Shown: positions 1-16,671, numbered from the stretch's first letter. The stretch: 32,000 nucleotides of DNA from Patescibacteria group bacterium (GCA_030549845.1 JAUQQN010000002.1:1-32000), one strand, 5' to 3'. Notes: generated by a model not told the origin, from the sequence alone. Program-made: numbers and translations.

Positions 1-670
1 AAAGTAAAACATATATTCCATAATTTAAAAGAAAATTGCTAACTAATGCCATGTATTTTGTAAAAGTGGGCAGCTCTAAATTATTTTCTTCAAAAATTCC
101 TGCTATTTTAGGAATCACTTGGGTAAACAGAACAAACATTGTTACTAAAAAAATTAAAAGCACTAATGCTGGGTAAATCATTGCTCCTATTATTTTGTTT
201 CTTAATTTATTTTGATTTTCATAATGATTCGCTAAGTTATCTAAAATCTCTTCTAAATTACCAGATATTTCTCCTATTCTTATAAGCCTTACCATTGTTT
301 TTTCAAAGATATCTGAAAATTTTTCCAAAGCTTGAGAAAAAGGCAAGCCTGCTAAAACACTTTCGTAAATTTCTTCAATTATTCTTCTAAATTGGGGTTT
401 AGATACTTGTTGTGCTAGTGCTTTTAGTGATTCATCTAAGGAAACACCACTTTTTAAAAGAAATTTTAGTGCTCTACAAAAAAATGCTAAATCTAAATAA
501 GAAACACCTCCTAAAATAAGCAGTGGTTTTATTTCGCTAATAGGTTTTATATAAGTTACTAAAATTCCTTGATTTTGTAAAACAGATATAGCAGTATCTT
601 TATCTTTAGCACTTATGATACCAGATTTAAAATTTCCTTCTTGATCAAATCCTCTAAATTCGAATCTCAT
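1..670 (-). CDS. pilC: Type IV pilus inner-membrane platform protein PilC (GspF/T2SS-F family). The N-terminal part is present and the gene runs off the window at position 1.
   Basis: Not in the ORF track because it has no stop in the window. Reverse-complement translation from the ATG at 670..668 gives MRFEFRGFDQEGNFKSGIISAKDKDTAISVLQNQGILVTYIKP...LDLAFFCRALKFLLKSGVSLDESLKALA...IGEISGNLEEIL, which is typical of PilC/GspF. The ATG overlaps the pilT stop (ATGA at 667-670). Confidence 0.85.
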   Translation of the reverse strand, partial: MRFEFRGFDQEGNFKSGIISAKDKDTAISVLQNQGILVTYIKPISEIKPLLILGGVSYLDLAFFCRALKFLLKSGVSLDESLKALAQQVSKPQFRRIIEEIYESVLAGLPFSQALEKFSDIFEKTMVRLIRIGEISGNLEEILDNLANHYENQNKLRNKIIGAMIYPALVLLIFLVTMFVLFTQVIPKIAGIFEENNLELPTFTKYMALVSNFLLNYGIYVLL

Positions 671-1725
671 TTTAATAAGCTCTTTAATCTATCTATATTA
701 ATTGCAAAGTGTAATGCAGTATCAATATCTATTTCCCCTAAATTTACTAAAGTTGCTAAAGATCTTTCTAACGTTATCATTCCTTGCTCTAAACTTGTTT
801 CAATTACTAAATCTATTTGATAAATTTTATTTTCTCTAATAAGATTTCTTACTGCAGGATTTGCAATTAAAACTTCGCACGCAGGCAATCTTCCACCTTT
901 TAATCTTGGAACTAACCTTTGAGAAACTATACCTATTAAAGTAGATGCTAGCTGAAATCTTGCTTGATTTTTTTGGGCTTCAGGTAATACATCTAAAATT
1001 CTATCAATTGTTTGTGAAGCTGAGTTTGTATGCAGTGTTCCTAAAACTAAATGTCCTGTTTCTGCAGCAGTTAAAGCAATTTGTATTGATTCTGGATCTC
1101 TAAGCTCACCTATCATAATGACGTCAGGATCTTCTCTCAATGCAGATCTTAAAGCTCTATGCCAATTTGGAGCATTTGTAGGAATTTCTCTCTGAGAAAT
1201 TAAGGATTGTTTAGGAGTAAAGATATACTCAATAGGTTCTTCAATTGTAATAATATGAGCTGGTCTTGTATTGTTTATTTCCTCTATTAAAGCTGCTAAT
1301 GTTGTAGATTTGCCCATCCCAGCAGGTCCTGTAATTAAAATAAACCCTTGTCTTTTTTTGACAAATTCTTTTAAAACTGGTGGTAGATTTAATTCTTCTA
1401 CGCTCTTAATCTCTGATGGGATAAGCCTAAATGCTGCAGCTAGCCCTGTATTTTGAAAATACACATTAGCTCTTATTCTAATATAGTCACCTACATTAAA
1501 AGAGAAATCTAAATCTTTAAATCTTGAAAGATAATCCTTTTGAACATCATTTAGTAAACTAAGAATCATTTTTTCAGTATCTTTTGAAGTTAAAATTCCC
1601 TCCTCTTCGAGAGGCATTAATTCTCCATCTATTCTTAACGTAGGATATCTTAACGGAACTATATGAACATCAGAGGCATCTCTCTGGCTAGCTATATCTA
1701 ATATTCTTCTTAATTTTTCATCCAT
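667..1725 (-). CDS. pilT: Twitching-motility / pilus retraction ATPase PilT
   Basis: 352 aa. Walker A ITGPAGMGKSTT, Walker B-like VIMIGELRD, and the GHLVLGTLHTNSA His-box typical of PilT/GspE-family hexameric ATPases. It has the short PilT-type length and lacks an N-terminal GspE_N domain. Confidence 0.9.
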   Translation of the reverse strand: MDEKLRRILDIASQRDASDVHIVPLRYPTLRIDGELMPLEEEGILTSKDTEKMILSLLNDVQKDYLSRFKDLDFSFNVGDYIRIRANVYFQNTGLAAAFRLIPSEIKSVEELNLPPVLKEFVKKRQGFILITGPAGMGKSTTLAALIEEINNTRPAHIITIEEPIEYIFTPKQSLISQREIPTNAPNWHRALRSALREDPDVIMIGELRDPESIQIALTAAETGHLVLGTLHTNSASQTIDRILDVLPEAQKNQARFQLASTLIGIVSQRLVPRLKGGRLPACEVLIANPAVRNLIRENKIYQIDLVIETSLEQGMITLERSLATLVNLGEIDIDTALHFAINIDRLKSLLK

Positions 1726-1742
1726 ATTATTTAATTATAATT

Positions 1743-3458
1743 TTAAGTTATTTTGATAACTTCTTCTATTGTTGTTAAACCATTTAAGGCTTTAATTATT
1801 CCATCTCCTCTTAAATTAACAAAGCTTTGGTTTTTGAGCAATTCTTCAATTTCTAATTCACTTTTTCCTTCATAAATTGCATTTTGTATTTCTTCTGTAG
1901 CTAGTATTACCTCAAAAATACCTATCCTTCCCATATAACCTTTGTAGTCGCACTTTTCGCAACCATTAGGGTGGAATATTTTAATTTCTTTTGGAATATA
2001 CCTTTCCTTTATTTTTTCATCAATTTTATTAATTTCCTCTTTTATAACCCTTTTTATCTCATCAGGGGGTTCAATTTCTTTTTTGCAATTATCACATAAT
2101 TTTTTTACCAATCTTTGAGCAATTATTAATTTAATTGTAGGAGGAAGTAGAAATCTTTCTATTCCTAAATCTATAAGCCTTGTTATTGCTCCTATAGCTG
2201 TATTTGTATGTAATGTTGATAAAACCAAATGCCCTGTTAAGGAAGCGTGTATAGCAAGTTCTGCGGTTTCCAAATCTCTTATTTCTCCTACTAATATAAT
2301 ATCAGGATCTTGTCTTAAAATTTCCCTTAAGCCCGTAGCAAAAGAATATCCTATCTCTGGTCTTACTTGAGATTGATTAATTCCCTCAATTCTATATTCC
2401 ACAGGGTCTTCTAAACTTATTATATTAACATTTTCTTTATTTAATCTTTGTAGTATAGAATATAAAGTTGTTGTTTTACCAGATCCAGTGGGTCCTGTAA
2501 TCAAAATTAGCCCATAAGGATGTTTAATACCTATCTCGACCTTTTCAAAAGTATAATCAAACATTCCTAATTCTTCTATTCTTTTCAACCCTATTAATGG
2601 ATCTAGAATCCTTATTGCAACCTTTTCTCCTTCTGCAGTAGGAAGTGTACCTATCCTTAAATCAATTTCTCTTCCTTGAACTATAGCTTTAATTCTTCCA
2701 TCTTGAGGTATTCTTGTTTCATCTAGCCTAAGTCTTGCTAAAACTTTTATTCTATTTACAATTTGCTCATGAAAATCTTTTGGTAAATAAGCAATTGTTC
2801 TTAACTCTCCCAACAATCTATATCTTATTCTAGTTTTTCTACTTAATGGTTCTATATGGATATCTGATGCTTGATTATAAACAGCTTCTTCAATTAATGC
2901 TTGTACTAATTTAATAATAGGCGCTTCTTCCGAGGGCAACATTTCTTCGCCTAATTCTATGGGTTTTTCAATAGGTGGTGGTGCCTTTTCTCTTAATTGA
3001 TAAACTATATTTTTAAGTGTTTCAGTAAATTCATGATATTGTTTAATCGCTCCATAAAAATCTTTTATTGAAATCAAATAAATTTTAACTTCGGAATTTA
3101 AGGAATTTTTTAGAAAATTAATAACTTCATTAAAGTTTTCAATATCAGGATTTACGATACCTAAATAAACACCATCAGGTTTTCTATCAAAGGCTATTAT
3201 TTTATATTTTTTTGCATAATCTTCATTAATTAATGTCAAGACTTCTTTTGGTATCTTTTCATTTTTATAAAATCTTTTAAACGGCAGCTGATAAAAATCT
3301 TTTTTAATTTCTAAAAATTCTTCTGGCAATTTTCCTAAAATATAAAGATATTCTTCTAAACTAATATTATTAGCTTGAGCTTCTTGTATTATTTCTTCTA
3401 TGTTTTCTATCTTATTTACTAATTTCTCCTTAGCGAATTTTAAAAATTCTAAATTCAT
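1743..3458 (-). CDS. pilB: Type IV pilus assembly (extension) ATPase PilB / GspE family
   Basis: 571 aa. Walker A ITGPTGSGKTTT, ILVGEIRD, GHLVLSTLHTNTA, and a tetracysteine motif CDNC...CEKC typical of PilB/GspE. A long N-terminal domain is present. Confidence 0.9.
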   Translation of the reverse strand: MNLEFLKFAKEKLVNKIENIEEIIQEAQANNISLEEYLYILGKLPEEFLEIKKDFYQLPFKRFYKNEKIPKEVLTLINEDYAKKYKIIAFDRKPDGVYLGIVNPDIENFNEVINFLKNSLNSEVKIYLISIKDFYGAIKQYHEFTETLKNIVYQLREKAPPPIEKPIELGEEMLPSEEAPIIKLVQALIEEAVYNQASDIHIEPLSRKTRIRYRLLGELRTIAYLPKDFHEQIVNRIKVLARLRLDETRIPQDGRIKAIVQGREIDLRIGTLPTAEGEKVAIRILDPLIGLKRIEELGMFDYTFEKVEIGIKHPYGLILITGPTGSGKTTTLYSILQRLNKENVNIISLEDPVEYRIEGINQSQVRPEIGYSFATGLREILRQDPDIILVGEIRDLETAELAIHASLTGHLVLSTLHTNTAIGAITRLIDLGIERFLLPPTIKLIIAQRLVKKLCDNCKKEIEPPDEIKRVIKEEINKIDEKIKERYIPKEIKIFHPNGCEKCDYKGYMGRIGIFEVILATEEIQNAIYEGKSELEIEELLKNQSFVNLRGDGIIKALNGLTTIEEVIKIT

Positions 3459-3742
3459 TCAAACAAATTACCTTTCCCAATCTCTTGAGGATTAATTTCT
3501 GGAATTTCTACTGGTTTAATTACACTAGGCAAAATTTGATCTAGCCGTTGGCCTATTTCTTCAAATTTTCGTTCCTTAATGTAATTTACTTCTGATTGAA
3601 TGGTTAGTATATCTTCAGGAAGTGGTGCTTCTTTTTTAAAAATATTAAATTCCCAAAAGGCTAATCTTAAAATTCCTATCAAAATTATCAGCACTATTAT
3701 TCCTCCTATTACATTAAATAGTTGATTTTTGGTAAAACTCAT
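3455..3742 (-). CDS. Small single-pass membrane protein of unknown family, at the position PilP occupies in pilMNOPQ operons
   Basis: 95 aa. One hydrophobic helix (VIGGIIVLIILIGILRLAF) followed by an acidic/Pro-rich tail. ATGA overlaps on both sides (3455-3458 and 3739-3742) tie it into the pilus operon. I recognise no family motif. Confidence 0.5.
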   Translation of the reverse strand: MSFTKNQLFNVIGGIIVLIILIGILRLAFWEFNIFKKEAPLPEDILTIQSEVNYIKERKFEEIGQRLDQILPSVIKPVEIPEINPQEIGKGNLFE

Positions 3743-4314
3743 TTTCCTTCTAAGGCCTTTGGTTTAATTTGACTAAGATAAAAATAAGCAACTTTCATCT
3801 TTATACCTAATAAATTATCTTCTTTCTTAATATCCAAATTTTCTATTTCAAAGAATCTACTATAGTTTTCAAAATTTTTTAATAAATTAAGTAAATCATT
3901 TAAAGAAGCCTTAAAGCTTACTTCAAAAACTTTCTTTGTAAGTTGGGCACTTGGAATATTTGGCAAGCTAATTTTATCATCAGAAAATTGGTAAATATTA
4001 GGTTCTCCTAGGCCACTACTTCTAAAAATAGTGTTAATAATTAAAATAAGCTCATAATCCTGAAAATCAGTTGGTAAATATAGATCTAGAATGCCTTGCT
4101 TTTTAGTTTCATAAATTTTTAAAGCCATAGGGTCATTTGCAATTTTTTCTATCGCGCTTTTAAAAATTTCTATCTTTTTTAACTTATTCTCTGCTACATT
4201 TTTATCTTCAGATAATCTCAAAAGTTCATTATATTTTGGTACAACTACCCCAAAAAATTGTTGAAGTATAAAAAATATCAAAATTATAATTATTAAATTT
4301 ATTGCCAGCCTCAT
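3739..4314 (-). CDS. pilO: PilO-like pilus alignment-complex protein (bitopic)
   Basis: 191 aa. N-terminal TM helix (LAINLIIIILIFFILQQFF), then a coiled-coil-like segment and an alpha/beta C-terminus. The call rests mainly on its position after the pilN-like gene and on topology. Confidence 0.55.
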   Translation of the reverse strand: MRLAINLIIIILIFFILQQFFGVVVPKYNELLRLSEDKNVAENKLKKIEIFKSAIEKIANDPMALKIYETKKQGILDLYLPTDFQDYELILIINTIFRSSGLGEPNIYQFSDDKISLPNIPSAQLTKKVFEVSFKASLNDLLNLLKNFENYSRFFEIENLDIKKEDNLLGIKMKVAYFYLSQIKPKALEGK

Positions 4315-4832
4315 TTATAAAATTCTTGATAATTCAATTTAAAACTAATTGAAATTAATACCCTTGAATTATTTTTATCAAAATCTAAATTTTCTACTTT
4401 AAGCTCTGGGAATATATTTGGGGTTTGGGCAAAATATTTGTAATACTTAGCGTACTCAACCCAGTTAGGTAAATAACCACTTAAAATTACTTTATCTTCT
4501 TTAGCATCATAGGAAAATTCTTGAATAACAAAATTTTTAGGAAGATACTTCGGAAGGTTCTCTATAACTTTCGATAAAAATTTTTTATTAGTAGCTAAAT
4601 AATCCATAGCTAAAAATTGAATTATTGAGATATAATTTTCTTGTTGCAAAGTACTATAGTATTCATTAACAAAATTATTTACCTTGTTATTTATCTCATT
4701 AATTTTTGTTTTATTATAATTAATCAAATAGTCTAAACCAGTTGAACCTAATATTAAAATTAATAAAATCAAAAGCAAAATAAAGATAACTTTCTTAGGT
4801 ATCAGTTCTAAAAAATCTGAAAACTTACCCAT
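4311..4832 (-). CDS. pilN: PilN-like pilus alignment-complex protein (bitopic)
   Basis: 173 aa. A short cytoplasmic N-terminus with LELIP resembles the PilN INLLP PilM-binding motif. A TM helix (VIFILLLILLILILG) follows. It lies immediately downstream of pilM. Confidence 0.55.
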   Translation of the reverse strand: MGKFSDFLELIPKKVIFILLLILLILILGSTGLDYLINYNKTKINEINNKVNNFVNEYYSTLQQENYISIIQFLAMDYLATNKKFLSKVIENLPKYLPKNFVIQEFSYDAKEDKVILSGYLPNWVEYAKYYKYFAQTPNIFPELKVENLDFDKNNSRVLISISFKLNYQEFYK

Positions 4833-4845
4833 ATAATAAATAATT

Positions 4846-5910
4846 TTAACGCAATAAAAAATTTAAACAACTACCTATGGCTGTGGATAAAACCGGAAGT
4901 TTTTCTTTGTTTTGAATACCTTCACCAATAAGTATAAAATCACTAGGATTAAATATAAAAATTGGTATATTTTGCAGCTTGCTTGCTAAAAAATCCAAGA
5001 AATTATCAGCTAAAGCAATTCCTCCAGTAAAATATATTTTATCTATCTTTTTATCAAAATTTTCTTTTAAAAATCCTACAACCCTATTTATTTCTCCTAC
5101 TAAACTTTCTATCAAAGAATTAAAAAGTATCTTGAGGTCTTCTTCTTCTGGTAGAATTTTAAATCCCTTGTTTATAAAAAAGTTTTCAGCTTCCTCAATA
5201 TTAACATTTAAAATATTAGCTAAAGACCTAACAACCTCTTTTAGGTTAAACTTCATCTTTTGAGCTAGCAAAACTTTACCTTCCCAGATTATTGCAAAAT
5301 AGCTATAACTATAACCTATATTTACTAAAAGAACAATATTTTTAGAATTTTTAAAAAAGCTTTCATGGGAAAAATATTCTATGTCTACTCCTACATATTT
5401 TAATTTAGCAATTTTTGATGCTCTTTGGAGTTTTTCAATAAAATTTAAAGGCAAAGCTGTAAAAAATATAAACCATCTTTCACTTTCACCTTCTATTAAT
5501 GATCTATATTCTAAATTTCTATATTCAATATAAAATTCGGTTTCTTCTAATGGTAAATATTTTTTAGATTCATATCTTACAGCATTTTTTAAGGTATTAA
5601 GAGGCATATGAGGTAAAGAAAAGTATGTTGAAAAAGAATATAAAATTGGAGAAACAAAAATTACTTCTTTGCTTTTAAATCCCTTTATGCTATCTCCTAT
5701 TAATCTTCCTAAGGTTTCTACAAATATTTGCGAGGTTTCTAAAATACTACCTAATCTGTTTTCTGCTTGAATCTCAATTATTATATAATTGTCTAAAACA
5801 AATGTATCCTTATACTTCGAAACTTCGACTATTTTCAAATTTTTTGAACCTAGATCAATGCCTATTACTTTTTTTGCTCCAAATATGTTTAACATTTTAA
5901 AATTATACAA
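4846..5910 (-). CDS. pilM: Type IV pilus assembly protein PilM (actin-like ATPase fold)
   Basis: 354 aa. VIGIDLGSKNLKIVEV phosphate-1-like motif, and a C-terminal IYFTGGIA typical of the FtsA/PilM actin fold. An alternative start is Met6 at 5895. Confidence 0.8.
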   Translation of the reverse strand: MYNFKMLNIFGAKKVIGIDLGSKNLKIVEVSKYKDTFVLDNYIIIEIQAENRLGSILETSQIFVETLGRLIGDSIKGFKSKEVIFVSPILYSFSTYFSLPHMPLNTLKNAVRYESKKYLPLEETEFYIEYRNLEYRSLIEGESERWFIFFTALPLNFIEKLQRASKIAKLKYVGVDIEYFSHESFFKNSKNIVLLVNIGYSYSYFAIIWEGKVLLAQKMKFNLKEVVRSLANILNVNIEEAENFFINKGFKILPEEEDLKILFNSLIESLVGEINRVVGFLKENFDKKIDKIYFTGGIALADNFLDFLASKLQNIPIFIFNPSDFILIGEGIQNKEKLPVLSTAIGSCLNFLLR

Positions 5911-6571
5911 GAAAACATTAGATCTTTTATATCCTTTTTATTGCTTAAGTTGTAAAAATTTTTTAGAAGAAGGTTATTTGTGTAAAAATTGCTTAGAGAG
6001 CTTGGATTTTCATTTAAAGATCATTTGCCCAAAATGTCAAAGAAGAAAACCCGTTTCTGAAGGTTTTAAGTTGCTATGTTGTAATTATTGTTTAAGAAGT
6101 TTAGTTTATTTTGTAGATTATGAGAAAGAAGTAATTAAAGAACTTATAAAATTAGGGAAGTTTTCTGGATATTATAAAATTTGGGAATTCATAGGTGATT
6201 TAATTTCCAATGAATTAAATAAATTTAACTTAGAAAATTTTTACATAACTTATGTTCCTATGACTAAAAAGGAATTAATAAATAGAGGATTTAATCAAAC
6301 CAAAATTTTAGCAAAAGTTTTAGCAAAAAGATTAAATTTAAAAATATTTGATGGATTAGTTAAAATAAAAGAAACAAAGCAGCAAGCTTTGTTGGATTTC
6401 AAAGAAAGATTTAATAACATAAAAGATGCATTTAATTGCAAAAAATCAGCTCCTAAAAATATAATATTAATAGATGACGTTTTTACAACAGGAGCAACCT
6501 TAGAAGAAATTTCAAAAACTTTAAAAAAATGTGGAGCAAAAATAATAATAGGAATAACTTTTGCTAAATGA
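5885..6571 (+). CDS. comF: ComF family protein (competence-associated phosphoribosyltransferase-fold protein with an N-terminal zinc finger)
   Basis: N-terminal Cys pairs CLSC...CKNC...CPKC...CCNYC, and a C-terminal PRTase signature ILIDDVFTTGATL. The track ORF opens at 5789, but Met33 (5885) is the plausible start because the upstream part is antisense to pilM. Confidence 0.8.
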   Translation: MFNILKLYKKTLDLLYPFYCLSCKNFLEEGYLCKNCLESLDFHLKIICPKCQRRKPVSEGFKLLCCNYCLRSLVYFVDYEKEVIKELIKLGKFSGYYKIWEFIGDLISNELNKFNLENFYITYVPMTKKELINRGFNQTKILAKVLAKRLNLKIFDGLVKIKETKQQALLDFKERFNNIKDAFNCKKSAPKNIILIDDVFTTGATLEEISKTLKKCGAKIIIGITFAK

Positions 6572-11172: not shown

Positions 11173-11730
11173 CTATTTTTTATATCTTTCTACATATTCG
11201 CCTTTTTCTGTATTTACTACTATCTCTTCGCCAATCTCAATAAAAAGAGGAACTGTAATTTCGGCACCTGTCTCTATTTTTGCTATTTTATAATTAGATT
11301 TTTCTGAATCTCCTTTTACGCCAGGAGAAGTTTCTATTACTTTATAAACAGCTTTTATAGGGAGCTCTATATTAAGCAATTGGTTTTCATAAAATAATCC
11401 TTTTATATCTAAATCTTTTTTTAAAAACTTAAATTTATTGCCTAAAATATCAGCCTTTATTTCATACTTATTACTTTTTTCATCCAAAAAATAAGCTATA
11501 TCATGCTTACTATACAAAAATTTAATGGGCCTTTTTTCTAATTCAATTTCTTCTAAATCTTCATCTGGATTAAAAACCTTTTTCAAAGTATTTCCTGACT
11601 TTATGTTTTTAAGTAAAAATTCTATATCTGCCTTGCCTCTCCCTCTATGAGAATGTTCTATTTCCAAAATTTGCCAAATTTCTCCATTTAAATTTATTGC
11701 ATCTCCTACTTTTAAGTATCTAACTTTCAT
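11173..11730 (-). CDS. efp: Translation elongation factor P
   Basis: 185 aa. Three-domain length, and an N-terminal KOW-like domain with the loop HRGRGKADIE containing the conserved modifiable Lys position. C-terminal ITVPLFIEIGEEIVVNTEKGEYVERY is typical of EF-P. Confidence 0.85.
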   Translation of the reverse strand: MKVRYLKVGDAINLNGEIWQILEIEHSHRGRGKADIEFLLKNIKSGNTLKKVFNPDEDLEEIELEKRPIKFLYSKHDIAYFLDEKSNKYEIKADILGNKFKFLKKDLDIKGLFYENQLLNIELPIKAVYKVIETSPGVKGDSEKSNYKIAKIETGAEITVPLFIEIGEEIVVNTEKGEYVERYKK

Positions 11731-13220
11731 TCTTCTTTAAGCTTTTTTAATAATTCCTTTAATACATCGACCTCTTCTTCTTTTTTAGGATTTTTAAAGC
11801 TTACTATAAGATTTTTTGTTTTTAATTCAGAAAGCTTTATGCCTGATTTAAATTTATCTTCACATTCATAACACACATTTCTTTCAGATTTTTTATCTTT
11901 CCAAAAATTTTCTCCACAATATTTGCATGTAGCAATTTCTTGTTCTTCTGAAACAGCTTCTCTATATTTTTTGAATATTTTTGACTCTACTATTTTTCTA
12001 TTTTTTGTATATTTTATCCTTGTAAGCTTTATTATTTCATCTACATAACTTATCTCTGGAATTTGTTTTGGAGGAAATGTTCTTGCTAAAAATGGTAAAG
12101 CAGGAGTTCCATCTATTGTTATTTTTGCATAGATGTGATATTTTGGTAAATTAATAAATTCATAAGCTTTTATTGTTACAAATTCTTTTTCTAGCCTCTC
12201 TGCATCTAAACTACCAGTTTTAAAAATCAAAAAATTCCCAACATTTCCAAAAACTGCTTTTAAAATAGATTCTGGTACTTGATCTAAATATTGATGAGAT
12301 AGAATCAAATTTAATCGATATTTCCTTGCTTCTGACAAAATATTAACAAAAGAATCTGTAGCAAAATTTTGAAACTCATCTATATAAAGATAAAAATCTT
12401 TTCTTTTTTCTTCTTCTATATCAACTCTACTCATAGCTGCGAGTTGGAATTTTGTTATTAAAAGCCCTCCTAATAAAGCTGAGTTTTCTTCACCAAGTTT
12501 TCCTTTTGATAAATTGGCTAGAAATATTTTTCCTTCATCCATCATCCTTCTTAAATCAAAAGAGCTTTTTTCTTGACCTATTATATTTCTTATAAGAGGA
12601 CTTGTTATGAATTGACCAACCTTATTTTGTATAGGAGCTATTGCTTCTGTTCTAAAAGTAGAATGGTATCTTGCAAATTCATTTTCCCAGAATGCTCTAA
12701 TTACAGGGTCTTTTAAGTTTTTAATAACCTCCTTTCTAAAATTATCATCCCCTAACATTCTATTTATATCTAATAAAGTTGAGTTTGGAAATTCAAGTAA
12801 AGCTAATAAAGTATTCATTAGGATATACTCCATCCGTGCCGACCAAGCATCTACCCATATTTTTTTCAAAACTGACAAAATACTTGATGCTACAATATGC
12901 CTAAATTCATAAGAAACATTTTCAAGGGGATTAAAGGATAAAGGATATTCTATATCTCCTGGATCAAAATAAATTACATCTTCTAATCTACTTTTAGGAA
13001 TAAATTTGAGCACCCTCAAAACACTATCACCATGAGGATCTATATAACCAATTCCTTTATTAGTCTGGATATCATAAAAAATCATATTTTCAATCAAAGT
13101 GGTTTTTCCTGAACCAGTTTTTCCTAAAATATAGACATGCCTTCTTCTATCTTCTGTTTTTATACCAAAATTGATTTCTTTATTTCTAAAAAAAGCCACT
13201 CCTATTGGTAAAATTTCCAT
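11727..13220 (-). CDS. Soluble P-loop ATPase of the VirD4/TraD/TrwB (type IV coupling protein-like) family with a C-terminal CxxC-X14-CxxC zinc ribbon
   Basis: 497 aa. Walker A ILGKTGSGKTT, GYIDPHGD, Walker B YLYIDEFQNF, and LILSHQYLDQV (a sensor-like SHQ block). No N-terminal TM helices. C-terminal CKYCGENF...CYECEDK plus a Lys/Glu tail. ATGA overlap with efp, and a 1-nt gap from the ATP-cone gene. Confidence 0.6.
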   Translation of the reverse strand: MEILPIGVAFFRNKEINFGIKTEDRRRHVYILGKTGSGKTTLIENMIFYDIQTNKGIGYIDPHGDSVLRVLKFIPKSRLEDVIYFDPGDIEYPLSFNPLENVSYEFRHIVASSILSVLKKIWVDAWSARMEYILMNTLLALLEFPNSTLLDINRMLGDDNFRKEVIKNLKDPVIRAFWENEFARYHSTFRTEAIAPIQNKVGQFITSPLIRNIIGQEKSSFDLRRMMDEGKIFLANLSKGKLGEENSALLGGLLITKFQLAAMSRVDIEEEKRKDFYLYIDEFQNFATDSFVNILSEARKYRLNLILSHQYLDQVPESILKAVFGNVGNFLIFKTGSLDAERLEKEFVTIKAYEFINLPKYHIYAKITIDGTPALPFLARTFPPKQIPEISYVDEIIKLTRIKYTKNRKIVESKIFKKYREAVSEEQEIATCKYCGENFWKDKKSERNVCYECEDKFKSGIKLSELKTKNLIVSFKNPKKEEEVDVLKELLKKLKEE

Positions 13221-13221
13221 T

Positions 13222-13497
13222 TTATTTATTTTTTACTTCTTTTTCATAATTTAACCAAGCTTCAGCAACTTTTGGATATTTTTCTTTTAGATGATCTAAA
13301 ATTAAATTTCTTATATCCTCTGTAGAAATTATTTCTTTTTCTTCACAAAATTCAAAAACTACTCTACTTACTTCTTCAACTATCTGAAAAATATTATTCA
13401 TTCCTGCATCTTTTGCAGCTTTTTCTATTGAAATTTTTATTTTTTCAGGTTCAAAATCTTCCTCGTAACCCTTTCTTTTTATTACTTTTTTCATCAA
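13222..13497 (-). CDS. Stand-alone ATP-cone domain protein
   Basis: 91 aa. VIKRKGYEEDFEPEKIKISIEKA...ISTEDIRNLILDHL...AEAWLNYEK follows the ATP-cone pattern (V.KRdG..E.F...KI..si..a ... ist..i...v...L ... a..y..y). There is no zinc ribbon, so it is not a full NrdR. Confidence 0.7.
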   Translation of the reverse strand: MMKKVIKRKGYEEDFEPEKIKISIEKAAKDAGMNNIFQIVEEVSRVVFEFCEEKEIISTEDIRNLILDHLKEKYPKVAEAWLNYEKEVKNK

Positions 13498-13515
13498 TTA
13501 AAATTTTAACCTAAG

Positions 13516-13797
13516 TTACTCAAAAATAGAAATAGAGTAGCCCTGTTCTAGTTTTACATAAGCTTTTTTAAATCTTGGTCTTACATTTAAAATTTTTGTT
13601 CTTCCTCTTTTACGCTTAGAATAATTTATCACCCTTACTTCCCTTACTTTTACATTAAATTTTTTCTCTATTAAGCTTTTTATTTCTACTTTATTTAAAT
13701 CAGGTGGAAAAATTTTAAAAACATATGTATTTTGTGAGGTTGATAAATTTCTTGATTTTTCTGAAATTACTGGTAAAATTTTAGCTTCTTTTTTCAT
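13516..13797 (-). CDS. rplW: 50S ribosomal protein L23
   Basis: 93 aa. Position after rplD, and the typical motifs YVFKI....NK.EIK..IEK.F.VKV..V. Confidence 0.9.
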
Positions 13798-14446
13798 TTT
13801 TTTTCAAAAAGGTATTAAGAATTACTTCTAAACTTTTGGGCTCTAGGAATAAATATTTATGATTTAATAATGCCAAAATATTAATATTTCTTGCCTCTAT
13901 TGCATCAGCATAAGGTAAATTTCTAACGGATTTTATTAGTGCTCTATCGTTTTCTGGTATAACAATTAATGCAGATTCATATTTCTTTTTTGTTTTCCTT
14001 TTTTCTAAAAATCTTGTTAAAATTTCATGCATTTTCTTAGTTTTATATTCTTCTGGCCTTAAGCTTTCTAACATCTTTACAAAATTATTTTTAAATTTTT
14101 GTGCTAGTACTGTTAAAATAGCTTTTCTTTTCATTTTTTTATTTATCTTAATGGCTCTTACTTTTTCCTTTCTTGGTCCAAAGGTAACTCCACCACCTTT
14201 CCAGATAGGAGACCTAATTGAACCATGTCTTGCTCTTCCTGTATGCTTTTGGGGCCAAGGTTTTCTACCGCCACCTCTAACTTCAGCTCTAGTCTTTGTA
14301 TGAGCCCAAGGATAATAAGAATTTAAAATCTGCCATCTCATAACTTGATGCACTAGTGCAGGATTCCATTCTAAATCCTCTAAAACTTTGGGTACTTCAT
14401 ACTCTCCTATTATTTCCCCTTTTTGATTATAAATAGGTACTTTCAT
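13781..14446 (-). CDS. rplD: 50S ribosomal protein L4
   Basis: 221 aa. [42 protein letters not shown] is the L4 signature. Confidence 0.95.
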
Positions 14447-15084
14447 CTTATTTTTCCTTTATTTGTTAAATTAGCACTTCTAATTTCTAATAAGCCTTTT
14501 CTGTTCCCAGGTACGCTTCCTTTGAGCCCTAATATATTGTTTTCTTTATCAATATAAACTATTTCTAAATTTCTAATGGTTATCCTTTTATTGCCTTCTC
14601 TTCCTGCCATTTTTAAGCCCTTTATAACTCTTTGGGGGGTTGTAGCACCTATTGAACCAGGATGTCTATATTTCGTTGTTTGTCCATGGGTTCTAGGAGC
14701 ATCCCTAAACCCCCACCTTGAAACAACACCTTGGAAACCTTTCCCTTTGCTGATACCAGAGACATTTACTAATTCTCCTTCATTAAAAATAGAGATGTCA
14801 ATTTTATCGCCTAATTTAAAGTTAGATAAATATTCCTCTGGAACCCTAAACTCTTTTATAAACCTAAATTTACCCAAATTATGAACTTGGCCTAAAACTG
14901 GTTTTTTTACCTTTTTCTTTTCACCACAACCCACTTGAATAGCTGGATAACCATCTTTTTCTTTTGTCTTAATGTTTGTCACAACACAAGGCAAAATTTC
15001 AACTAAAGTTACAGGAATAGCTTTAAAATCCTTAAATAAAGTTGTCATACCTAATTTTTTACCAAGGATAAACTTAATCATCAC
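14443..15084 (-). CDS. rplC: 50S ribosomal protein L3
   Basis: 213 aa. [29 protein letters not shown] and [14 protein letters not shown] are L3 signatures. Confidence 0.95.
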
Positions 15085-15105
15085 GTATTAAATTTTTAAT
15101 AATTT

Positions 15106-15432
15106 TTAAATTATTTTTAACTCAATCTCTACTCCTGCTGGTAGATCAAGATAAGAAAATAACTCTACGACCCTTTGGGTTGGGTTTATTACGTCAATTA
15201 ATCTTTTATGAATCTTTAATTCAAATTGCTCTCTTGAATCTTTATATATAAAAGGAGAACGATTGACTGTATAAATCTTAGTTTCAGTAGGTAAAGGAAC
15301 AGGTCCTCTTATTTGCATTCCTTCCTTCAACAATAAATCAACAAGTTGTTTTGCATATTTATCAATCAATCTATGATCATATGACATCAATCTTATTCTT
15401 AGTCTTTGCTCTTGTTTTTGTTTTGAGTTCAT
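15106..15432 (-). CDS. rpsJ: 30S ribosomal protein S10
   Basis: 108 aa. RIRLMSYDHRLID...GPVPLPT...YTVNRSPFIYKDSREQFE...HKRLIDV is typical of S10. Confidence 0.95.
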   Translation of the reverse strand: MNSKQKQEQRLRIRLMSYDHRLIDKYAKQLVDLLLKEGMQIRGPVPLPTETKIYTVNRSPFIYKDSREQFELKIHKRLIDVINPTQRVVELFSYLDLPAGVEIELKII

Positions 15433-15471
15433 TTTTGAGTGTTCGAAATATCGTCAAAATATTATTGTCTT

Positions 15472-16671
15472 TTATTTTATTATTTTTGTAACAACACCAG
15501 CACCTACTGTTTTTCCACCTTCTCTTACTGCAAACCTTAAACCTTCTTCTAACGCTACAGGATAGATTAACTTTACTTTAAATGTGGCATTATCACCTGG
15601 CATTACTGCTTCTATTCCTTCTGGTAAAACTATTTCTCCTGTAACATCTGTTGTTCTAAAGTAAAATTGAGGTTTATAGCCGGTATGAAATGGAGTATGC
15701 CTTCCTCCTTCTTCAGGAGTTAAAACATATACTTCTGCTTCAAATTCTGTGTGAGGTGTAATAGTGCCTGGCTTTGCCACAACCATTCCTCTTTCAACTT
15801 CTTCCTTTGCAACACCTCTTAACAAAAGACCTACGTTATCTCCCGGATGAGCTTCGTCTAAGTCTTTATGAAACATTTGAATACCTGTTACAACTGTCTT
15901 TAATGGTTTTTCTCTCAAGCCTACAACTTCAACTTCTTCATTGAGCTTTAGAATTCCTCTTTCAACTCTCCCTGTAACAACTGTACCACGACCAGCGATT
16001 GAGAAAACATCTTCTATTGGCATTAAAAATGGTTTATCTATCTCTCTTACTGGTTCTGGAATATAAGTATCTAGCGCTTCCAGTAGTTCTAAAATTGGCT
16101 TTGCCCATTCGTCATCTAAACTTTTTGCTTCTAATGCTTTTAATGCTGAACCTTTTATAACAGGAACCTCATCACCTGGATAGCCATATTTTTTAAGCTC
16201 ATTTCTTACATCTTCTTCAACAAGTTCTATTAATTCTTTATCAGGTACCATATCAATTTTATTTATAAAAACAACTATAGCAGGTACATTTACTTGTCTT
16301 GCCAAAAGTATATGTTCTCGTGTTTGAGCCATGACTCCATCATTAGCTGCTACAACCAAAATAGCACCATCCATTTGAGCTGCTCCAATAATCATATTTT
16401 TTACATAGTCAGCATGCCCAGGACAGTCGATGTGTGCATAGTGTCTTTTTTCTGTTTCATATTCTGAGTGGTGAATGTTTATAGTAATACCTCTTGCCTT
16501 TTCTTCAGGCGCATTATCAATTTCTTCAACTGTTTCTGCTCTTTCAAGTAATCCTTTAAGTTTAAGTATATATTGAATTGCTGCGGTTAAAGTAGTTTTC
16601 CCGTGATCAATATGACCAATTGTGCCTACATTAATGTGTGGTTTTACTCTTTCAAACTTTGCTGCTGCCAT
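15472..16671 (-). CDS. tuf: Translation elongation factor Tu
   Basis: 399 aa. [18 protein letters not shown] and NKID GTPase motifs, with full-length EF-Tu collinearity. Confidence 0.98.

What the first reader, a model, noticed from the sequence alone, without database searches (positions are those of the whole stretch)
11173..13497. ATP-cone, soluble VirD4/TraD-like zinc-ribbon ATPase and EF-P fused onto the end of the ribosomal-protein operon
Three genes follow rplW with an 18-nt gap, a 1-nt gap and an ATGA overlap (11727-11730).
- The first is a stand-alone 91-aa ATP-cone, a nucleotide-sensing domain normally found in NrdR and RNR.
- The second is a 497-aa P-loop ATPase with T4SS coupling-protein-like motifs (GKTGSGKTT, IDPHGD, YIDEFQNF, SHQYLDQ). 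It lacks the membrane anchor of VirD4/TraD and ends in a CxxC-X14-CxxC zinc ribbon plus a Lys/Glu tail.
- The third is efp.

No other conjugation or T4SS genes are nearby. The tight coupling to rpsJ-rplCDW and to efp implies co-expression with the translation apparatus. The module may be a nucleic-acid translocase or remodeller gated by an ATP/dATP sensor. That would be a pairing and context I do not know to be described. It could alternatively be the cytoplasmic motor for DNA taken up via the pilus/ComF system in this window.
Basis: partly seen in the sequence, partly recalled or inferred. Interest (0 to 1): 0.7.

Follow-up and report, generated by a model that had tools for sequence, protein, structure and literature searches.

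The report
Orphan conjugation-type ATPase beside ribosomal genes
The three genes are real, but the central one is a conjugation-type coupling ATPase that almost all Patescibacteria carry, normally next to a membrane partner and a DNA-binding protein. Its position here after ribosomal genes and an ATP-cone gene is a local rearrangement in one hot-spring lineage, not a conserved sensor–motor module.

Summary
Observation confirmed. On the minus strand, rplW is followed by a 90/91-aa ATP-cone, a 497-aa soluble VirD4/TrwB-like ATPase with a C-terminal zinc ribbon, and efp, all tightly spaced.

Interpretation partly supported.
- **Family.** The ATPase is a type IV coupling protein (T4CP) homologue. 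Its model matches TrwB best, and hhalign to TrwB gives 93% probability.
- **Distribution.** It belongs to a very conserved, near-universal Patescibacteria family.
- **ATP-cone and rplW adjacency.** Only 1 of 80 species-level loci shares it. Sister genomes have three opposite-strand genes there instead.
- **Usual context.** In 69 of 78 informative loci the order is Sigma70_r4/HARE-HTH protein, then DUF8128 membrane protein, then the ATPase, often after secDF.
- **DUF8128.** It folds like the VirB4 N-terminal domain. It is fused to this ATPase type in Bacillus and Embleya conjugative plasmids, so the Patescibacteria pair is a split T4CP.
- **efp.** The linkage is older and recurrent (11 of 80 loci).
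- **Other systems.** No T4SS, relaxase or competence linkage is conserved. A canonical FtsK is also in the window.

Function remains untested. The likely role is a membrane-associated nucleic-acid or substrate-coupling motor. ATP-cone gating is unsupported but not excluded.

The parts
13516..13797 (-). rplW (ribosomal protein L23). It is the last gene of a truncated tuf-rpsJ-rplC-rplD-rplW run. No rplB follows it anywhere in the window.
   Evidence: Pfam PF00276, E 5e-21. ORF list.
13495..13515 (-). Intergenic spacer between rplW and the ATP-cone gene. It is 21 nt to the ATG start and 18 nt to the upstream in-frame TTG.
   Evidence: Sequence. No terminator-like site on the minus strand, and promoter-like hits at chance level. 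No Rfam match.
13222..13494 (-). Stand-alone ATP-cone protein of 90 aa (91 aa if the TTG at 13497 is used). It has no zinc ribbon, so it is not NrdR. The N-terminal VIKRKG..E.F...KI motif is intact.
   Evidence: PF03477, 54.8 bits. The best NCBIfam matches are the N-terminal cones of anaerobic ribonucleotide reductases. There are 20 homologues, 55-100% identical and all 89-95 aa.
11727..13220 (-). Soluble T4CP-type (VirD4/TrwB-like) P-loop ATPase of 497 aa. It is the ATPase half of a split DUF8128-type coupling protein and belongs to a family that is core to Patescibacteria.
   Evidence: Pfam T4SS-DNA_transf 27.9 bits, DUF87 28.1 and TrwB_AAD_bind 24.4, all above cutoff. AF2 model pLDDT 84.5. 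Foldseek best match is TrwB at E 2.5e-12. hhalign to TrwB gives 92.9% over 265 columns, but only the P-loop aligns to VirB4/TrwK. More than 8000 homologues.
13101..13124 (-). Walker A motif, GKTGSGKT (residues 33-40).
   Evidence: Translation. G33, T35, G36, G38, K39 and T40 are invariant in the 18-sequence alignment.
12531..12911 (-). All-helical insertion (about residues 104-230). It corresponds to the all-alpha domain of T4CPs and is the most conserved part of the protein (KKIWVDAWSARMEYIL, EAIAPIQNKVGQF).
   Evidence: Secondary structure of the model. Alignment to TrwB across this region. Invariant columns.
12369..12392 (-). Walker B region, YLYIDEFQ (residues 277-284). It is followed by the invariant ARKY (298-301) and the HQY..Q motif (309-314), in which Q310 and Q314 are invariant.
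   Evidence: Translation. Invariant D281, E282, F283, Q284, R299, K300, Q310 and Q314.
11862..11927 (-). C-terminal zinc ribbon, CxxC-x14-CxxC (C432, C435, C450, C453). A Lys/Glu-rich tail follows it.
   Evidence: The four Cys are at least 90% conserved. Longer relatives score as PF23477 zf_Tbcl_2. The motif is absent from the plasmid-borne fused homologues.
11173..11730 (-). efp (elongation factor P). Its start overlaps the ATPase stop codon (ATGA).
   Evidence: NF001810, 181 bits, plus the three EF-P Pfam domains. efp lies directly downstream on the same strand in 11 of 80 related loci.
13781..16671 (-). Upstream genes tuf, rpsJ, rplC and rplD, which form the same-strand run leading into rplW.
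   Evidence: ORFs. Identical synteny with Pfam labels in L083, L084, L089 and L090.

Best explanation
**What it is.** The 497-aa gene is the ATPase half of a type IV coupling protein (T4CP, VirD4/TrwB family) that Patescibacteria keep as a chromosomal, vertically inherited, very conserved core gene.
- In conjugative plasmids of monoderm bacteria, this T4CP subtype is a single protein of about 820 aa. A DUF8128 domain with a VirB4-N-terminal-like fold is fused in front of the ATPase.
- In Patescibacteria the two halves are separate, adjacent genes, usually preceded by a Sigma70_r4/HARE-HTH DNA-binding protein.

**How this locus arose.** In the hot-spring lineage of this window, the ATPase-efp pair has been relocated. 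It now lies behind a truncated tuf-rpsJ-rplCDW operon and away from DUF8128 and the HTH gene. A small stand-alone ATP-cone gene lies in the gap. The contact with ribosomal genes and the ATP-cone is therefore a lineage-specific rearrangement that probably gives co-transcription, not an ancient functional module.

**Inferred mechanism (not shown).** The protein forms a RecA-type hexameric ring. It binds a nucleic-acid or nucleoprotein substrate through its all-alpha domain and zinc ribbon. It uses NTP hydrolysis to hand that substrate to, or pull it through, a membrane machine. It reaches that machine through DUF8128 where this partner is present. The machine could be the separately encoded Patescibacteria T4SS or an unidentified channel. 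The ATP-cone most likely acts as an independent ATP/dATP sensor, for example for ribonucleotide reduction.
For: **Family identity.**
- Pfam T4CP models score above their cutoffs.
- The AF2 model (pLDDT 84.5) matches TrwB best, with TM 0.62-0.65 normalised to the target. Cagbeta and DotL follow, and HerA is weaker.
- hhalign to TrwB gives 92.9%, E 3.7e-7, over 265 columns. Only the P-loop aligns to VirB4.
- The catalytic motifs are invariant.

**Core status.**
- More than 8000 hits, and the top 120 are 52-83% identical.
- 597 of 600 pattern-matched stretches in species-representative genomes encode a relative.
- T4CP homologues occur in 2,918 of 3,035 Patescibacteria genomes, and only 148 lie near virB4 (PMC12102498).

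**Conserved partners.**
- DUF8128 lies directly upstream on the same strand in 69 of 80 loci (69 of 78 informative), with a median gap of 12 nt.
- The HTH protein lies upstream of DUF8128 in 60 loci.
- secDF lies further upstream in at least 40 loci.

**Split/fused relationship.** The B. methanolicus pBM69 833-aa protein and the Embleya plasmid 812-aa protein match the DUF8128 profile at the N-terminus (61 and 20 bits). This includes the ELAxxxHxP motif just before the ATPase domain. They match the ATPase profile at the C-terminus (E 7e-54 and 3e-77). Both sit next to replication-relaxation, PrgI and VirB4-like genes.

**DUF8128 fold.** The model has pLDDT 85 and an N-terminal transmembrane helix. 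Its top 11 Foldseek hits are all TrwK/VirB4.

**Rearrangement series.**
- P0017 locus: HTH, DUF8128, ATPase, a toxin-antitoxin insertion, efp, dnaG, rpoD.
- KatS3mg094 and KatS3mg095: rplW, three reverse-strand genes, ATPase-efp.
- Window clade: rplW, ATP-cone, ATPase, efp.

**ATP-cone independence.** The ATP-cone family is narrow, with 20 proteins. Its most distant member sits in an unrelated context without the ATPase.
Against: - No biochemical or genetic data exist for this protein. The substrate, the hexamer and membrane association are all inferred.
- The window holds no DUF8128 or HTH homologue, even at E below 10. None of the best 120 DUF8128 hits comes from the large contigs of this clade. 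The ATPase may therefore work without that partner here, which weakens the membrane-docking step for this genome.
- The very high conservation (over 50% identity across the phylum) is unusual for T4CPs. It hints at a conserved cellular partner that this model does not name.
- In S. epibionticum, the 921-aa T4CP-like protein in the same position, directly after the HTH gene, is non-essential. The T4SS and the adjacent HTH gene are essential. A strict one-pathway model with either of them is therefore doubtful.
- The VirB4-N-terminal likeness of DUF8128 rests on Foldseek alone (TM about 0.35). hhalign found no sequence signal.
- The tight ATP-cone/ATPase spacing is conserved in all five clade members examined, so a functional link is not excluded.
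Confidence: 0.6

Rival explanations
1. The ATP-cone protein is a trans-acting ATP/dATP-sensing subunit that gates the T4CP-like ATPase. The module is deliberately co-expressed with the translation apparatus.
For: The ATP-cone and ATPase genes are 1-2 nt apart, and the ATPase and efp genes overlap or nearly touch, in all five members of the clade examined. No terminator is predicted. The nucleotide-binding motif of the ATP-cone is intact. In this clade the usual DUF8128 partner is not adjacent.
Against: The adjacency occurs in 1 of 80 species-level loci. Within the clade the whole 12-kb region is collinear, so conservation there says little. Sister genomes with unlinked ATPases lack the ATP-cone altogether. 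The most distant ATP-cone homologue lies elsewhere, without the ATPase. The ATPase N-terminus and motifs do not differ from those of relatives that have no ATP-cone neighbour. No interaction test could be run.
Confidence: 0.1
2. The ATPase is the cytoplasmic motor for DNA uptake. It would replace ComFA behind ComEC and the type IV pilus in Patescibacteria, which need imported nucleotides.
For: T4CPs are DNA-dependent motors, and the protein carries a zinc ribbon, as ComFA does (general knowledge). The window holds PilT, PilB, PilM and a ComFC-like gene. In S. epibionticum both the same-position T4CP-like gene and comEC are non-essential. NCBIfam gives a weak hit to the archaeal DNA-import ATPase CedD.
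Against: No pilus or competence gene appears among the conserved neighbours in 80 loci. In the window the pilus and ComFC genes are 5-12 kb away in other transcription units. The fused plasmid homologues sit in export-type conjugation clusters.
Confidence: 0.15
3. It is a HerA/FtsK-type repair or chromosome-segregation translocase, working with a nuclease partner or as a split FtsK.
For: Pfam DUF87 scores above its cutoff. HerA structures are among the top Foldseek hits. Some related loci have a recJ-like DHH gene and an RNase H gene downstream.
Against: TrwB matches better than HerA, with target-normalised TM 0.62-0.65 against 0.48-0.49. The model shows no large N-terminal domain before the P-loop, so there is no room for a HerA HAS-barrel. 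There is no NurA-like neighbour. A complete canonical FtsK with 4TM, alpha, motor and gamma domains is encoded in the same window at 28018-30126. The recJ-like gene is two genes away, after pgk, and only in a subset of loci.
Confidence: 0.04
4. It is a relic of an integrated conjugative or defence element, for example a MADS-like system, rather than a host gene.
For: The closest non-Patescibacteria relatives lie on plasmids. PADLOC gives a mad8 hit at E 1.8e-16. The Sulfitobacter homologue is flanked by transposases.
Against: The neighbours are all housekeeping genes, and synteny is stable across the phylum. The family is near-universal and 50-83% identical. There is no integrase, relaxase or other mad gene nearby. 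The published core-family flag in S. epibionticum is 1.
Confidence: 0.03

Closest known systems
TrwB (R388), VirD4, TraD: type IV coupling proteins
   Same: RecA-like nucleotide-binding domain with an inserted all-alpha domain. Walker A and B motifs. Best structural match (1e9s, E 2.5e-12). hhalign 92.9% over 265 columns. Pfam T4SS-DNA_transf and TrwB_AAD_bind score above their cutoffs.
   Different: No N-terminal transmembrane domain. It has a C-terminal zinc ribbon. There is no relaxase or T4SS neighbour. It is chromosomal, near-universal and 50-83% identical across a whole phylum. Only about 15% identical to TrwB.
Fused DUF8128-T4CP proteins of monoderm conjugative plasmids: B. methanolicus pBM69 BMMGA3_RS16220 (833 aa) and Embleya plasmid OG928_RS01290 (812 aa)
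   Same: Their C-terminal halves match the ATPase profile (E 7e-54 and 3e-77). Their N-terminal halves match the DUF8128 profile, including the ELAxxxHxP motif that abuts the ATPase. This shows that DUF8128 and this ATPase type form one functional unit.
   Different: They are a single polypeptide. They lie next to replication-relaxation, PrgI/VirB3-like, VirB4-like and NlpC/P60 genes, so they belong to real conjugation modules. They have no zinc ribbon. The window protein is the ATPase half alone, with no DUF8128 gene in 32 kb.
S. epibionticum SEML1_0294 and SEML1_0293 (Wang et al. 2023, PMC10633639)
   Same: A Sigma70_r4 plus HARE-HTH protein is followed directly by a 'T4SS DNA-binding domain' protein. 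Both are flagged as core and Patescibacteria-enriched families. This is the same gene order as in 60 of my loci.
   Different: SEML1_0293 is 921 aa, with its P-loop domain at 361-795. It therefore appears to be the fused form, although its N-terminus was not verified here. Orthology to the window protein is inferred from annotation and synteny, not from sequence. The Tn-seq calls are non-essential for the ATPase (reads fall from 5817 to 1372) and essential for the HTH gene.
VirB4/TrwK with TrsD of monoderm and Patescibacteria T4SS
   Same: The DUF8128 model resembles the VirB4 N-terminal domain. T4CP and VirB4 ATPases are sister families. A small N-terminal-domain-like protein (TrsD) next to an ATPase is also the Patescibacteria T4SS arrangement (PMC12102498).
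   Different: The window ATPase aligns to VirB4 only at the P-loop. The Patescibacteria T4SS lies near dnaA, not at this locus. There is no sequence-level signal between DUF8128 and TrwK.
ATP-cone domains of NrdR and ribonucleotide reductases
   Same: PF03477 covers the full length, and the N-terminal nucleotide-binding motif is conserved. The best matches are the N-terminal cones of NrdD-type enzymes.
   Different: It is a stand-alone 90-aa protein with no zinc ribbon (so not NrdR) and no catalytic domain. It is restricted to about 20 sequence clusters.

Membership tests
Type IV coupling protein (VirD4/TrwB/TraD) | RecA-like nucleotide-binding domain with Walker A and Walker B motifs | tested here: met
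   GKTGSGKT and LYIDEF are invariant across 18 relatives. The fold matches TrwB.
Type IV coupling protein (VirD4/TrwB/TraD) | All-alpha domain inserted in the nucleotide-binding domain | tested here: met
   The helical block at residues 104-230 in the model aligns with TrwB through this region. PF10412 scores 24.4 bits against a cutoff of 20.5.
Type IV coupling protein (VirD4/TrwB/TraD) | N-terminal transmembrane anchor | tested here: not met
   The model starts with beta strands and has no hydrophobic helix. In relatives a transmembrane helix is carried by the separate DUF8128 protein.
Type IV coupling protein (VirD4/TrwB/TraD) | Genomic association with a relaxase and/or mating-pair-formation (VirB4) genes | tested here: not met
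   None in the 32-kb window. None among the conserved neighbours of 80 loci. The literature reports only 148 of 5,713 near virB4.
Type IV coupling protein (VirD4/TrwB/TraD) | Hexameric ring with a central channel, and DNA-stimulated ATPase activity | not testable with these tools
   No multimer prediction or biochemistry was available.
DUF8128-type (split or fused) T4CP | A DUF8128 (PF26449) domain immediately N-terminal to, or encoded immediately upstream of, the ATPase | tested here: not met
   Absent from the window and from clade loci even at E below 10. Present in 69 of 80 related loci and fused in plasmid homologues. Whether it lies elsewhere in this genome is unknown.
HerA (DUF87) helicase | N-terminal HAS-barrel domain and a NurA-type nuclease partner | tested here: not met
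   Only about 25 residues of beta hairpin precede the P-loop. There is no nuclease neighbour. The HerA structural match is weaker than the TrwB match. The Pfam DUF87 hit (28.1 bits) reflects the shared ATPase core.
FtsK/SpoIIIE | 4TM, alpha, beta (motor) and gamma domains | tested here: not met
   The FtsK_SpoIIIE hit covers the P-loop only, at E 0.0046 and below cutoff. A complete FtsK is encoded separately at 28018-30126.
ATP-cone domain (PF03477) | Full-length match above the gathering score, with the conserved N-terminal K/R nucleotide-binding motif | tested here: met
   54.8 bits against a cutoff of 25.8, covering residues 3-87 of 91. The VIKRKGYEEDFEPEKI motif is present. Nucleotide binding itself was not testable.
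NrdR transcriptional repressor | N-terminal zinc ribbon preceding the ATP-cone | tested here: not met
   The only cysteine (C51) lies inside the ATP-cone and there is no CxxC motif. TIGR00244 scores only 20 bits against a cutoff of 124.65, aligned to the cone part.
Elongation factor P | Three-domain EF-P architecture above the curated cutoff | tested here: met
   NF001810 scores 181.2 bits against a cutoff of 161. EFP_N, EFP and Elong-fact-P_C are all found.

The most novel reading that the evidence does not exclude
In this hot-spring Paceibacteria clade, the phylum-wide T4CP-like motor has become separated from its DUF8128/HTH partners. It has acquired a translationally coupled stand-alone ATP-cone, which acts in trans as an ATP/dATP-sensing regulatory subunit. 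The result would be a nucleotide-gated coupling ATPase expressed from the ribosomal-protein/efp transcript. More broadly, the HTH, DUF8128 and T4CP triad would be a domesticated conjugation module that became a core Patescibacteria machine for moving nucleic acid.
Probability: 0.1. Interest if true: 0.7.

Novelty: new variant of a known kind. Interest (0 to 1): 0.45.

Why it matters
Patescibacteria are a huge, mostly uncultured group with tiny genomes. Any gene kept in about 96% of them at over 50% identity is doing something central, yet this one has no assigned function.

This work shows three things.
- The gene is the ATPase half of a split conjugative coupling protein.
- Its usual partners are a VirB4-N-terminal-like membrane protein (DUF8128) and a sigma-region-4/HARE-HTH protein.
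- Fused versions of it sit in real conjugation modules.

Together these give concrete, testable hypotheses about DNA or substrate transfer. They can be tested in an organism that already has genetics, S. epibionticum, where the positionally equivalent genes are SEML1_0293 and SEML1_0294.

The specific ATP-cone and ribosomal-operon arrangement that prompted the finding is a local curiosity. It would matter only if the ATP-cone protein proves to regulate the motor.

Tried and rejected
1. **Split-FtsK idea.** Rejected, because a complete FtsK lies at 28018-30126.
2. **MADS or other defence system.** The PADLOC mad8 hit reflects the shared ATPase core. No other mad genes are present and the context is housekeeping.
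3. **Sequence-level link between DUF8128 and VirB4.** hhalign of the DUF8128 profile against R388 TrwK gave nothing, so only the structural resemblance stands.
5. **HTH protein versus plasmid replication-relaxation proteins.** No signal.
6. **Fused forms through the DUF8128 profile.** The search of 1.84 billion representatives gave 3,884 hits, but the 150 listed are all stand-alone proteins. Fusions were found instead through tblastn on plasmids.
7. **Does the window's genome hold DUF8128 elsewhere?** Unresolved. The remaining hits and the full genomes could not be inspected.
8. **Extra domains in long relatives.** C-terminal extensions (600-750 aa) carry only the zf_Tbcl_2 zinc finger and no further Pfam domain.
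9. **Local Pfam copy.** It lacks PF26449, so DUF8128 scored 'no family' locally. The label comes from precomputed annotations.
10. **Literature.** There are no papers on DUF8128 or on stand-alone ATP-cone proteins.


Full report
**1. Observation**

The minus strand carries tuf (15472-16671), rpsJ, rplC, rplD and rplW (13516-13797). Three further ORFs follow: 13222-13497 (91 aa, TTG start), 11727-13220 (497 aa) and 11173-11730 (185 aa).

- The spacings are as reported: 18 nt, 1 nt and an ATGA overlap.
- All 20 homologues of the small protein are about 90 aa, so its true start is probably the ATG at 13494, giving a 21-nt gap.
- Pfam and NCBIfam identify L23, an ATP-cone (54.8 bits against a cutoff of 25.8) and EF-P (181 bits against 161).
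- The middle protein hits T4SS-DNA_transf, DUF87 and TrwB_AAD_bind just above their cutoffs.
- No minus-strand terminator-like site separates the genes. Promoter-like matches are at chance, 27 against 26.4 in shuffles. No Rfam family matches there.
- trpS and tyrS converge on efp from the plus strand.

**2. The ATPase**

An AlphaFold2 model built on 18 relatives has mean pLDDT 84.5.

- It starts with short beta strands and has no transmembrane helix.
- A helical block of about 125 residues is inserted in the RecA-like core.
- The zinc-ribbon region has lower confidence.

Foldseek against the PDB puts TrwB first (E 2.5e-12, TM 0.62-0.65 normalised to the target). HerA, Cagbeta, DotL and the DndH C-domain follow. 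Profile comparison with R388 TrwB gives 92.9% probability over 265 columns. With R388 VirB4 (TrwK), only the P-loop aligns.

It is therefore a coupling-protein (T4CP) homologue, not a VirB4, HerA or FtsK. A complete FtsK with 4TM, alpha, motor and gamma domains sits elsewhere in the window at 28018-30126. That removes the idea of a substitute FtsK.

**3. How widespread it is**

- The protein search hit its 8000-candidate ceiling. The 120 best hits are 52-83% identical, about 480-580 aa (most about 500 aa), and where named they come from Patescibacteria.
- In one-genome-per-species contigs, 597 of 600 pattern matches encode a relative.
- The four zinc-ribbon cysteines are at least 90% conserved, and the catalytic motifs are invariant.
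- A 2025 survey found VirD4-type T4CP homologues in 2,918 of 3,035 Patescibacteria genomes, against VirB4 in 2,417. Only 148 of 5,713 were near virB4. The authors remarked that the gene might have been exapted (PMC12102498).

**4. Neighbourhood test**

I called ORFs in 80 related loci and searched them with the window's proteins. I then clustered the four neighbours on each side and re-checked with profiles.

- **ATP-cone and ribosomal run.** They occur next to the ATPase in only one locus, L001 (Ca. Paceibacter, ATPase 82% identical).
- **Conserved neighbour.** This is a protein of about 440 aa with an N-terminal transmembrane helix. It lies directly upstream on the same strand in 69 of 80 loci. 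Two of the other eleven have under 160 nt of upstream sequence. The median gap is 12 nt. Precomputed annotation calls it PF26449 (DUF8128). The local Pfam copy lacks that model.
- **Further upstream.** A Sigma70_r4 plus HARE-HTH protein lies upstream of DUF8128 in 60 loci. secD and secF usually lie upstream of that.
- **Downstream.** The genes vary by lineage: pgk, a recJ-like gene, rnhA and murJ; or dnaG and rpoD; or efp and mnmA.
- **efp.** It lies directly downstream on the same strand in 11 loci, on the opposite strand in 3, and upstream in 1.
- **Pilus and competence genes.** None is a conserved neighbour.

**5. The window's clade**

Context look-ups show three arrangements.

- A 63%-identical relative has HTH, DUF8128, ATPase, an AbiEii toxin-antitoxin insertion, efp, dnaG and rpoD.
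- Two near-complete hot-spring genomes (KatS3mg094 and KatS3mg095, ATPases 67-69% identical) have rpoC, tuf, rpsJ and rplCDW. Three opposite-strand genes without Pfam matches follow, then ATPase-efp, then trpS.
- ATP-cone homologues 66-71% identical to the window's (P0129, P0137, P0138) lie in loci with exactly the window's arrangement. The whole region of about 12 kb is collinear.

The ATP-cone family itself is tiny, with 20 clusters 55-100% identical. Its most distant member sits in an unrelated context without the ATPase.

The simplest reading has three parts.
- ATPase-efp is the older linkage.
- The pair was moved behind a truncated S10-type operon.
- The ATP-cone gene is a late, lineage-specific occupant of the gap.

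Neither DUF8128 nor the HTH protein is detectable in the window or in sister loci, even at E below 10. None of the best 120 DUF8128 hits comes from this clade's large contigs. Whether the partner is lost or merely elsewhere remains open.

**6. What DUF8128 is**

- Its model (pLDDT 85) has one long N-terminal helix followed by alpha/beta domains.
- The eleven best PDB matches are all TrwK/VirB4 chains from the R388 secretion system (E 1.4e-5 to 4.6e-4, probability 0.99-1.00, TM about 0.35).

Independent and stronger evidence for partnership comes from plasmids.

- tblastn finds relatives of the ATPase on 714 plasmid records.
- In B. methanolicus pBM69 the relative is an 833-aa protein, and in an Embleya plasmid an 812-aa protein.
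- Their N-terminal 320-400 residues match the DUF8128 profile (61 and 20 bits). The match includes the conserved ELAxxxHxP motif that directly precedes the ATPase domain. Their C-terminal halves match the ATPase profile (E 7e-54 and 3e-77).
- Both genes sit beside replication-relaxation, PrgI/VirB3-like, VirB4-like and cell-wall hydrolase genes, so they belong to genuine monoderm conjugation clusters.

The Patescibacteria pair is thus a split version of a fused conjugative coupling protein. The zinc ribbon is an addition not seen in the plasmid forms.

**7. Published genetics**

In Southlakia epibionticum (Wang et al. 2023, Tables S1 and S2):

- SEML1_0294 is a 350-aa Sigma70_r4 plus HARE-HTH protein.
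- The adjacent SEML1_0293 is a 921-aa 'T4SS DNA-binding domain' protein with its P-loop domain at residues 361-795. This is consistent with the fused architecture, but I could not check its N-terminus.
- Both are flagged as core and Patescibacteria-enriched families.
- The HTH gene is essential.
- The ATPase gene is called non-essential, although its normalised reads fall from 5817 to 2940 to 1372 over the passages.
- The paper does not discuss either gene, and states that its T4SS lacks a recognisable coupling protein.

**8. Mechanism**

- **Shown.** T4CP homology and fold, intact catalytic motifs, the conserved zinc ribbon, the conserved DUF8128 and HTH neighbours, the split/fused relationship, and the lineage-specific nature of the ATP-cone and ribosomal context.
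- **Inferred.** A hexameric NTP-driven motor binds a nucleic-acid or nucleoprotein substrate through the all-alpha domain and zinc ribbon. It is tethered to the membrane by DUF8128. It delivers the substrate to the separately encoded T4SS or to another channel.
- **Weak points.** The S. epibionticum gene in the same position is non-essential while the T4SS is essential. The extreme sequence conservation has no explanation. The partner is apparently absent in this very clade.

The ATP-cone is best treated as an independent ATP/dATP sensor, and its closest relatives are the N-terminal cones of anaerobic ribonucleotide reductases. Its 1-2 nt spacing to the ATPase is conserved in the clade, so regulation in trans cannot be excluded. 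I give that about 10%.

**9. Verdict**

The finding is real and correctly annotated. Its central idea, a conserved ATP-cone/translocase module tied to translation, fails the conservation test. What lies underneath is more general: an uncharacterised, phylum-wide, domesticated and split coupling protein with defined partners. The window shows an atypical, partner-less arrangement of it.

I rate it a new variant of a known kind, of moderate interest.

Noticed in passing
window 28018-30126 (+): A complete canonical FtsK (4TM, alpha, motor and gamma domains) is encoded in the same window. This genome therefore has two FtsK/HerA-superfamily translocase-type ATPases.
   Followed up: partly
window 13516-16671 (-); L083-L086, L089, L090: The S10-type ribosomal operon stops after rplW. 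No rplB, rpsS or later genes occur anywhere in the 32-kb window. The same truncation is seen in all clade relatives, including those without the ATP-cone.
   Followed up: partly
window 11173-11730 (-), EF-P residue 31: By manual alignment to E. coli EF-P, the tip of domain I reads G-R-G (R31) where E. coli has G-K34-G. This is an Arg-type EF-P, which raises the question of whether and how it is modified. No EarP-like gene was looked for.
   Followed up: no
window 667-6571: A type IV pilus cluster: PilT 667-1725, PilB 1743-3458, three small ORFs without Pfam matches at 3455-4832, and PilM 4846-5910. An overlapping divergent ComFC-like gene (double zinc ribbon plus phosphoribosyltransferase) lies at 5789-6571. 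None of these is linked to the ATPase in other genomes.
   Followed up: partly
L085:4737-6879 and L086:4789-6907 (minus strand): In KatS3mg094 and KatS3mg095, three consecutive genes of 219-246 aa with no Pfam match occupy the position of the ATP-cone gene, in the opposite orientation. They are not DUF8128.
   Followed up: partly
L087:8558-9443: A DUF6922/AbiEii toxin-antitoxin pair is inserted between the ATPase and efp in one relative. This shows the ATPase-efp junction can be interrupted.
   Followed up: no
(P0001) and record titles: The protein identical to the window's ATPase is labelled 'Candidatus Methanomethylia' at NCBI. Several clearly Patescibacteria-like contigs are titled 'uncultured Gammaproteobacteria' or 'Saccharibacteria'. 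These are probably binning or taxonomy-label errors.
   Followed up: no
L091:6983-8170 (Sulfitobacter mediterraneus plasmid NZ_CP081110.1): The closest relative outside Patescibacteria (38.9% identity) is a 395-aa ATPase-only protein. It has no DUF8128 and is flanked by a recombinase and transposases. It may be a remnant or a transfer.
   Followed up: partly
PMC10633639 Table S1, SEML1_0293: This gene is called non-essential, but its normalised Tn-seq reads fall about four-fold from T0 to T2 (5817, 2940, 1372) while its neighbours stay flat or rise. That suggests an unreported fitness cost.
   Followed up: partly
L056 and L079, downstream of the ATPase: In a sub-clade lacking adjacent DUF8128, three tandem paralogous genes of about 370-510 aa follow the ATPase. 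The one copy whose sequence I printed (L079, 486 aa) ends in a motif resembling the PEP-utilising-enzyme mobile domain (GGLTCHAAIVARE). I recognised this by eye and ran no family scan.
   Followed up: no
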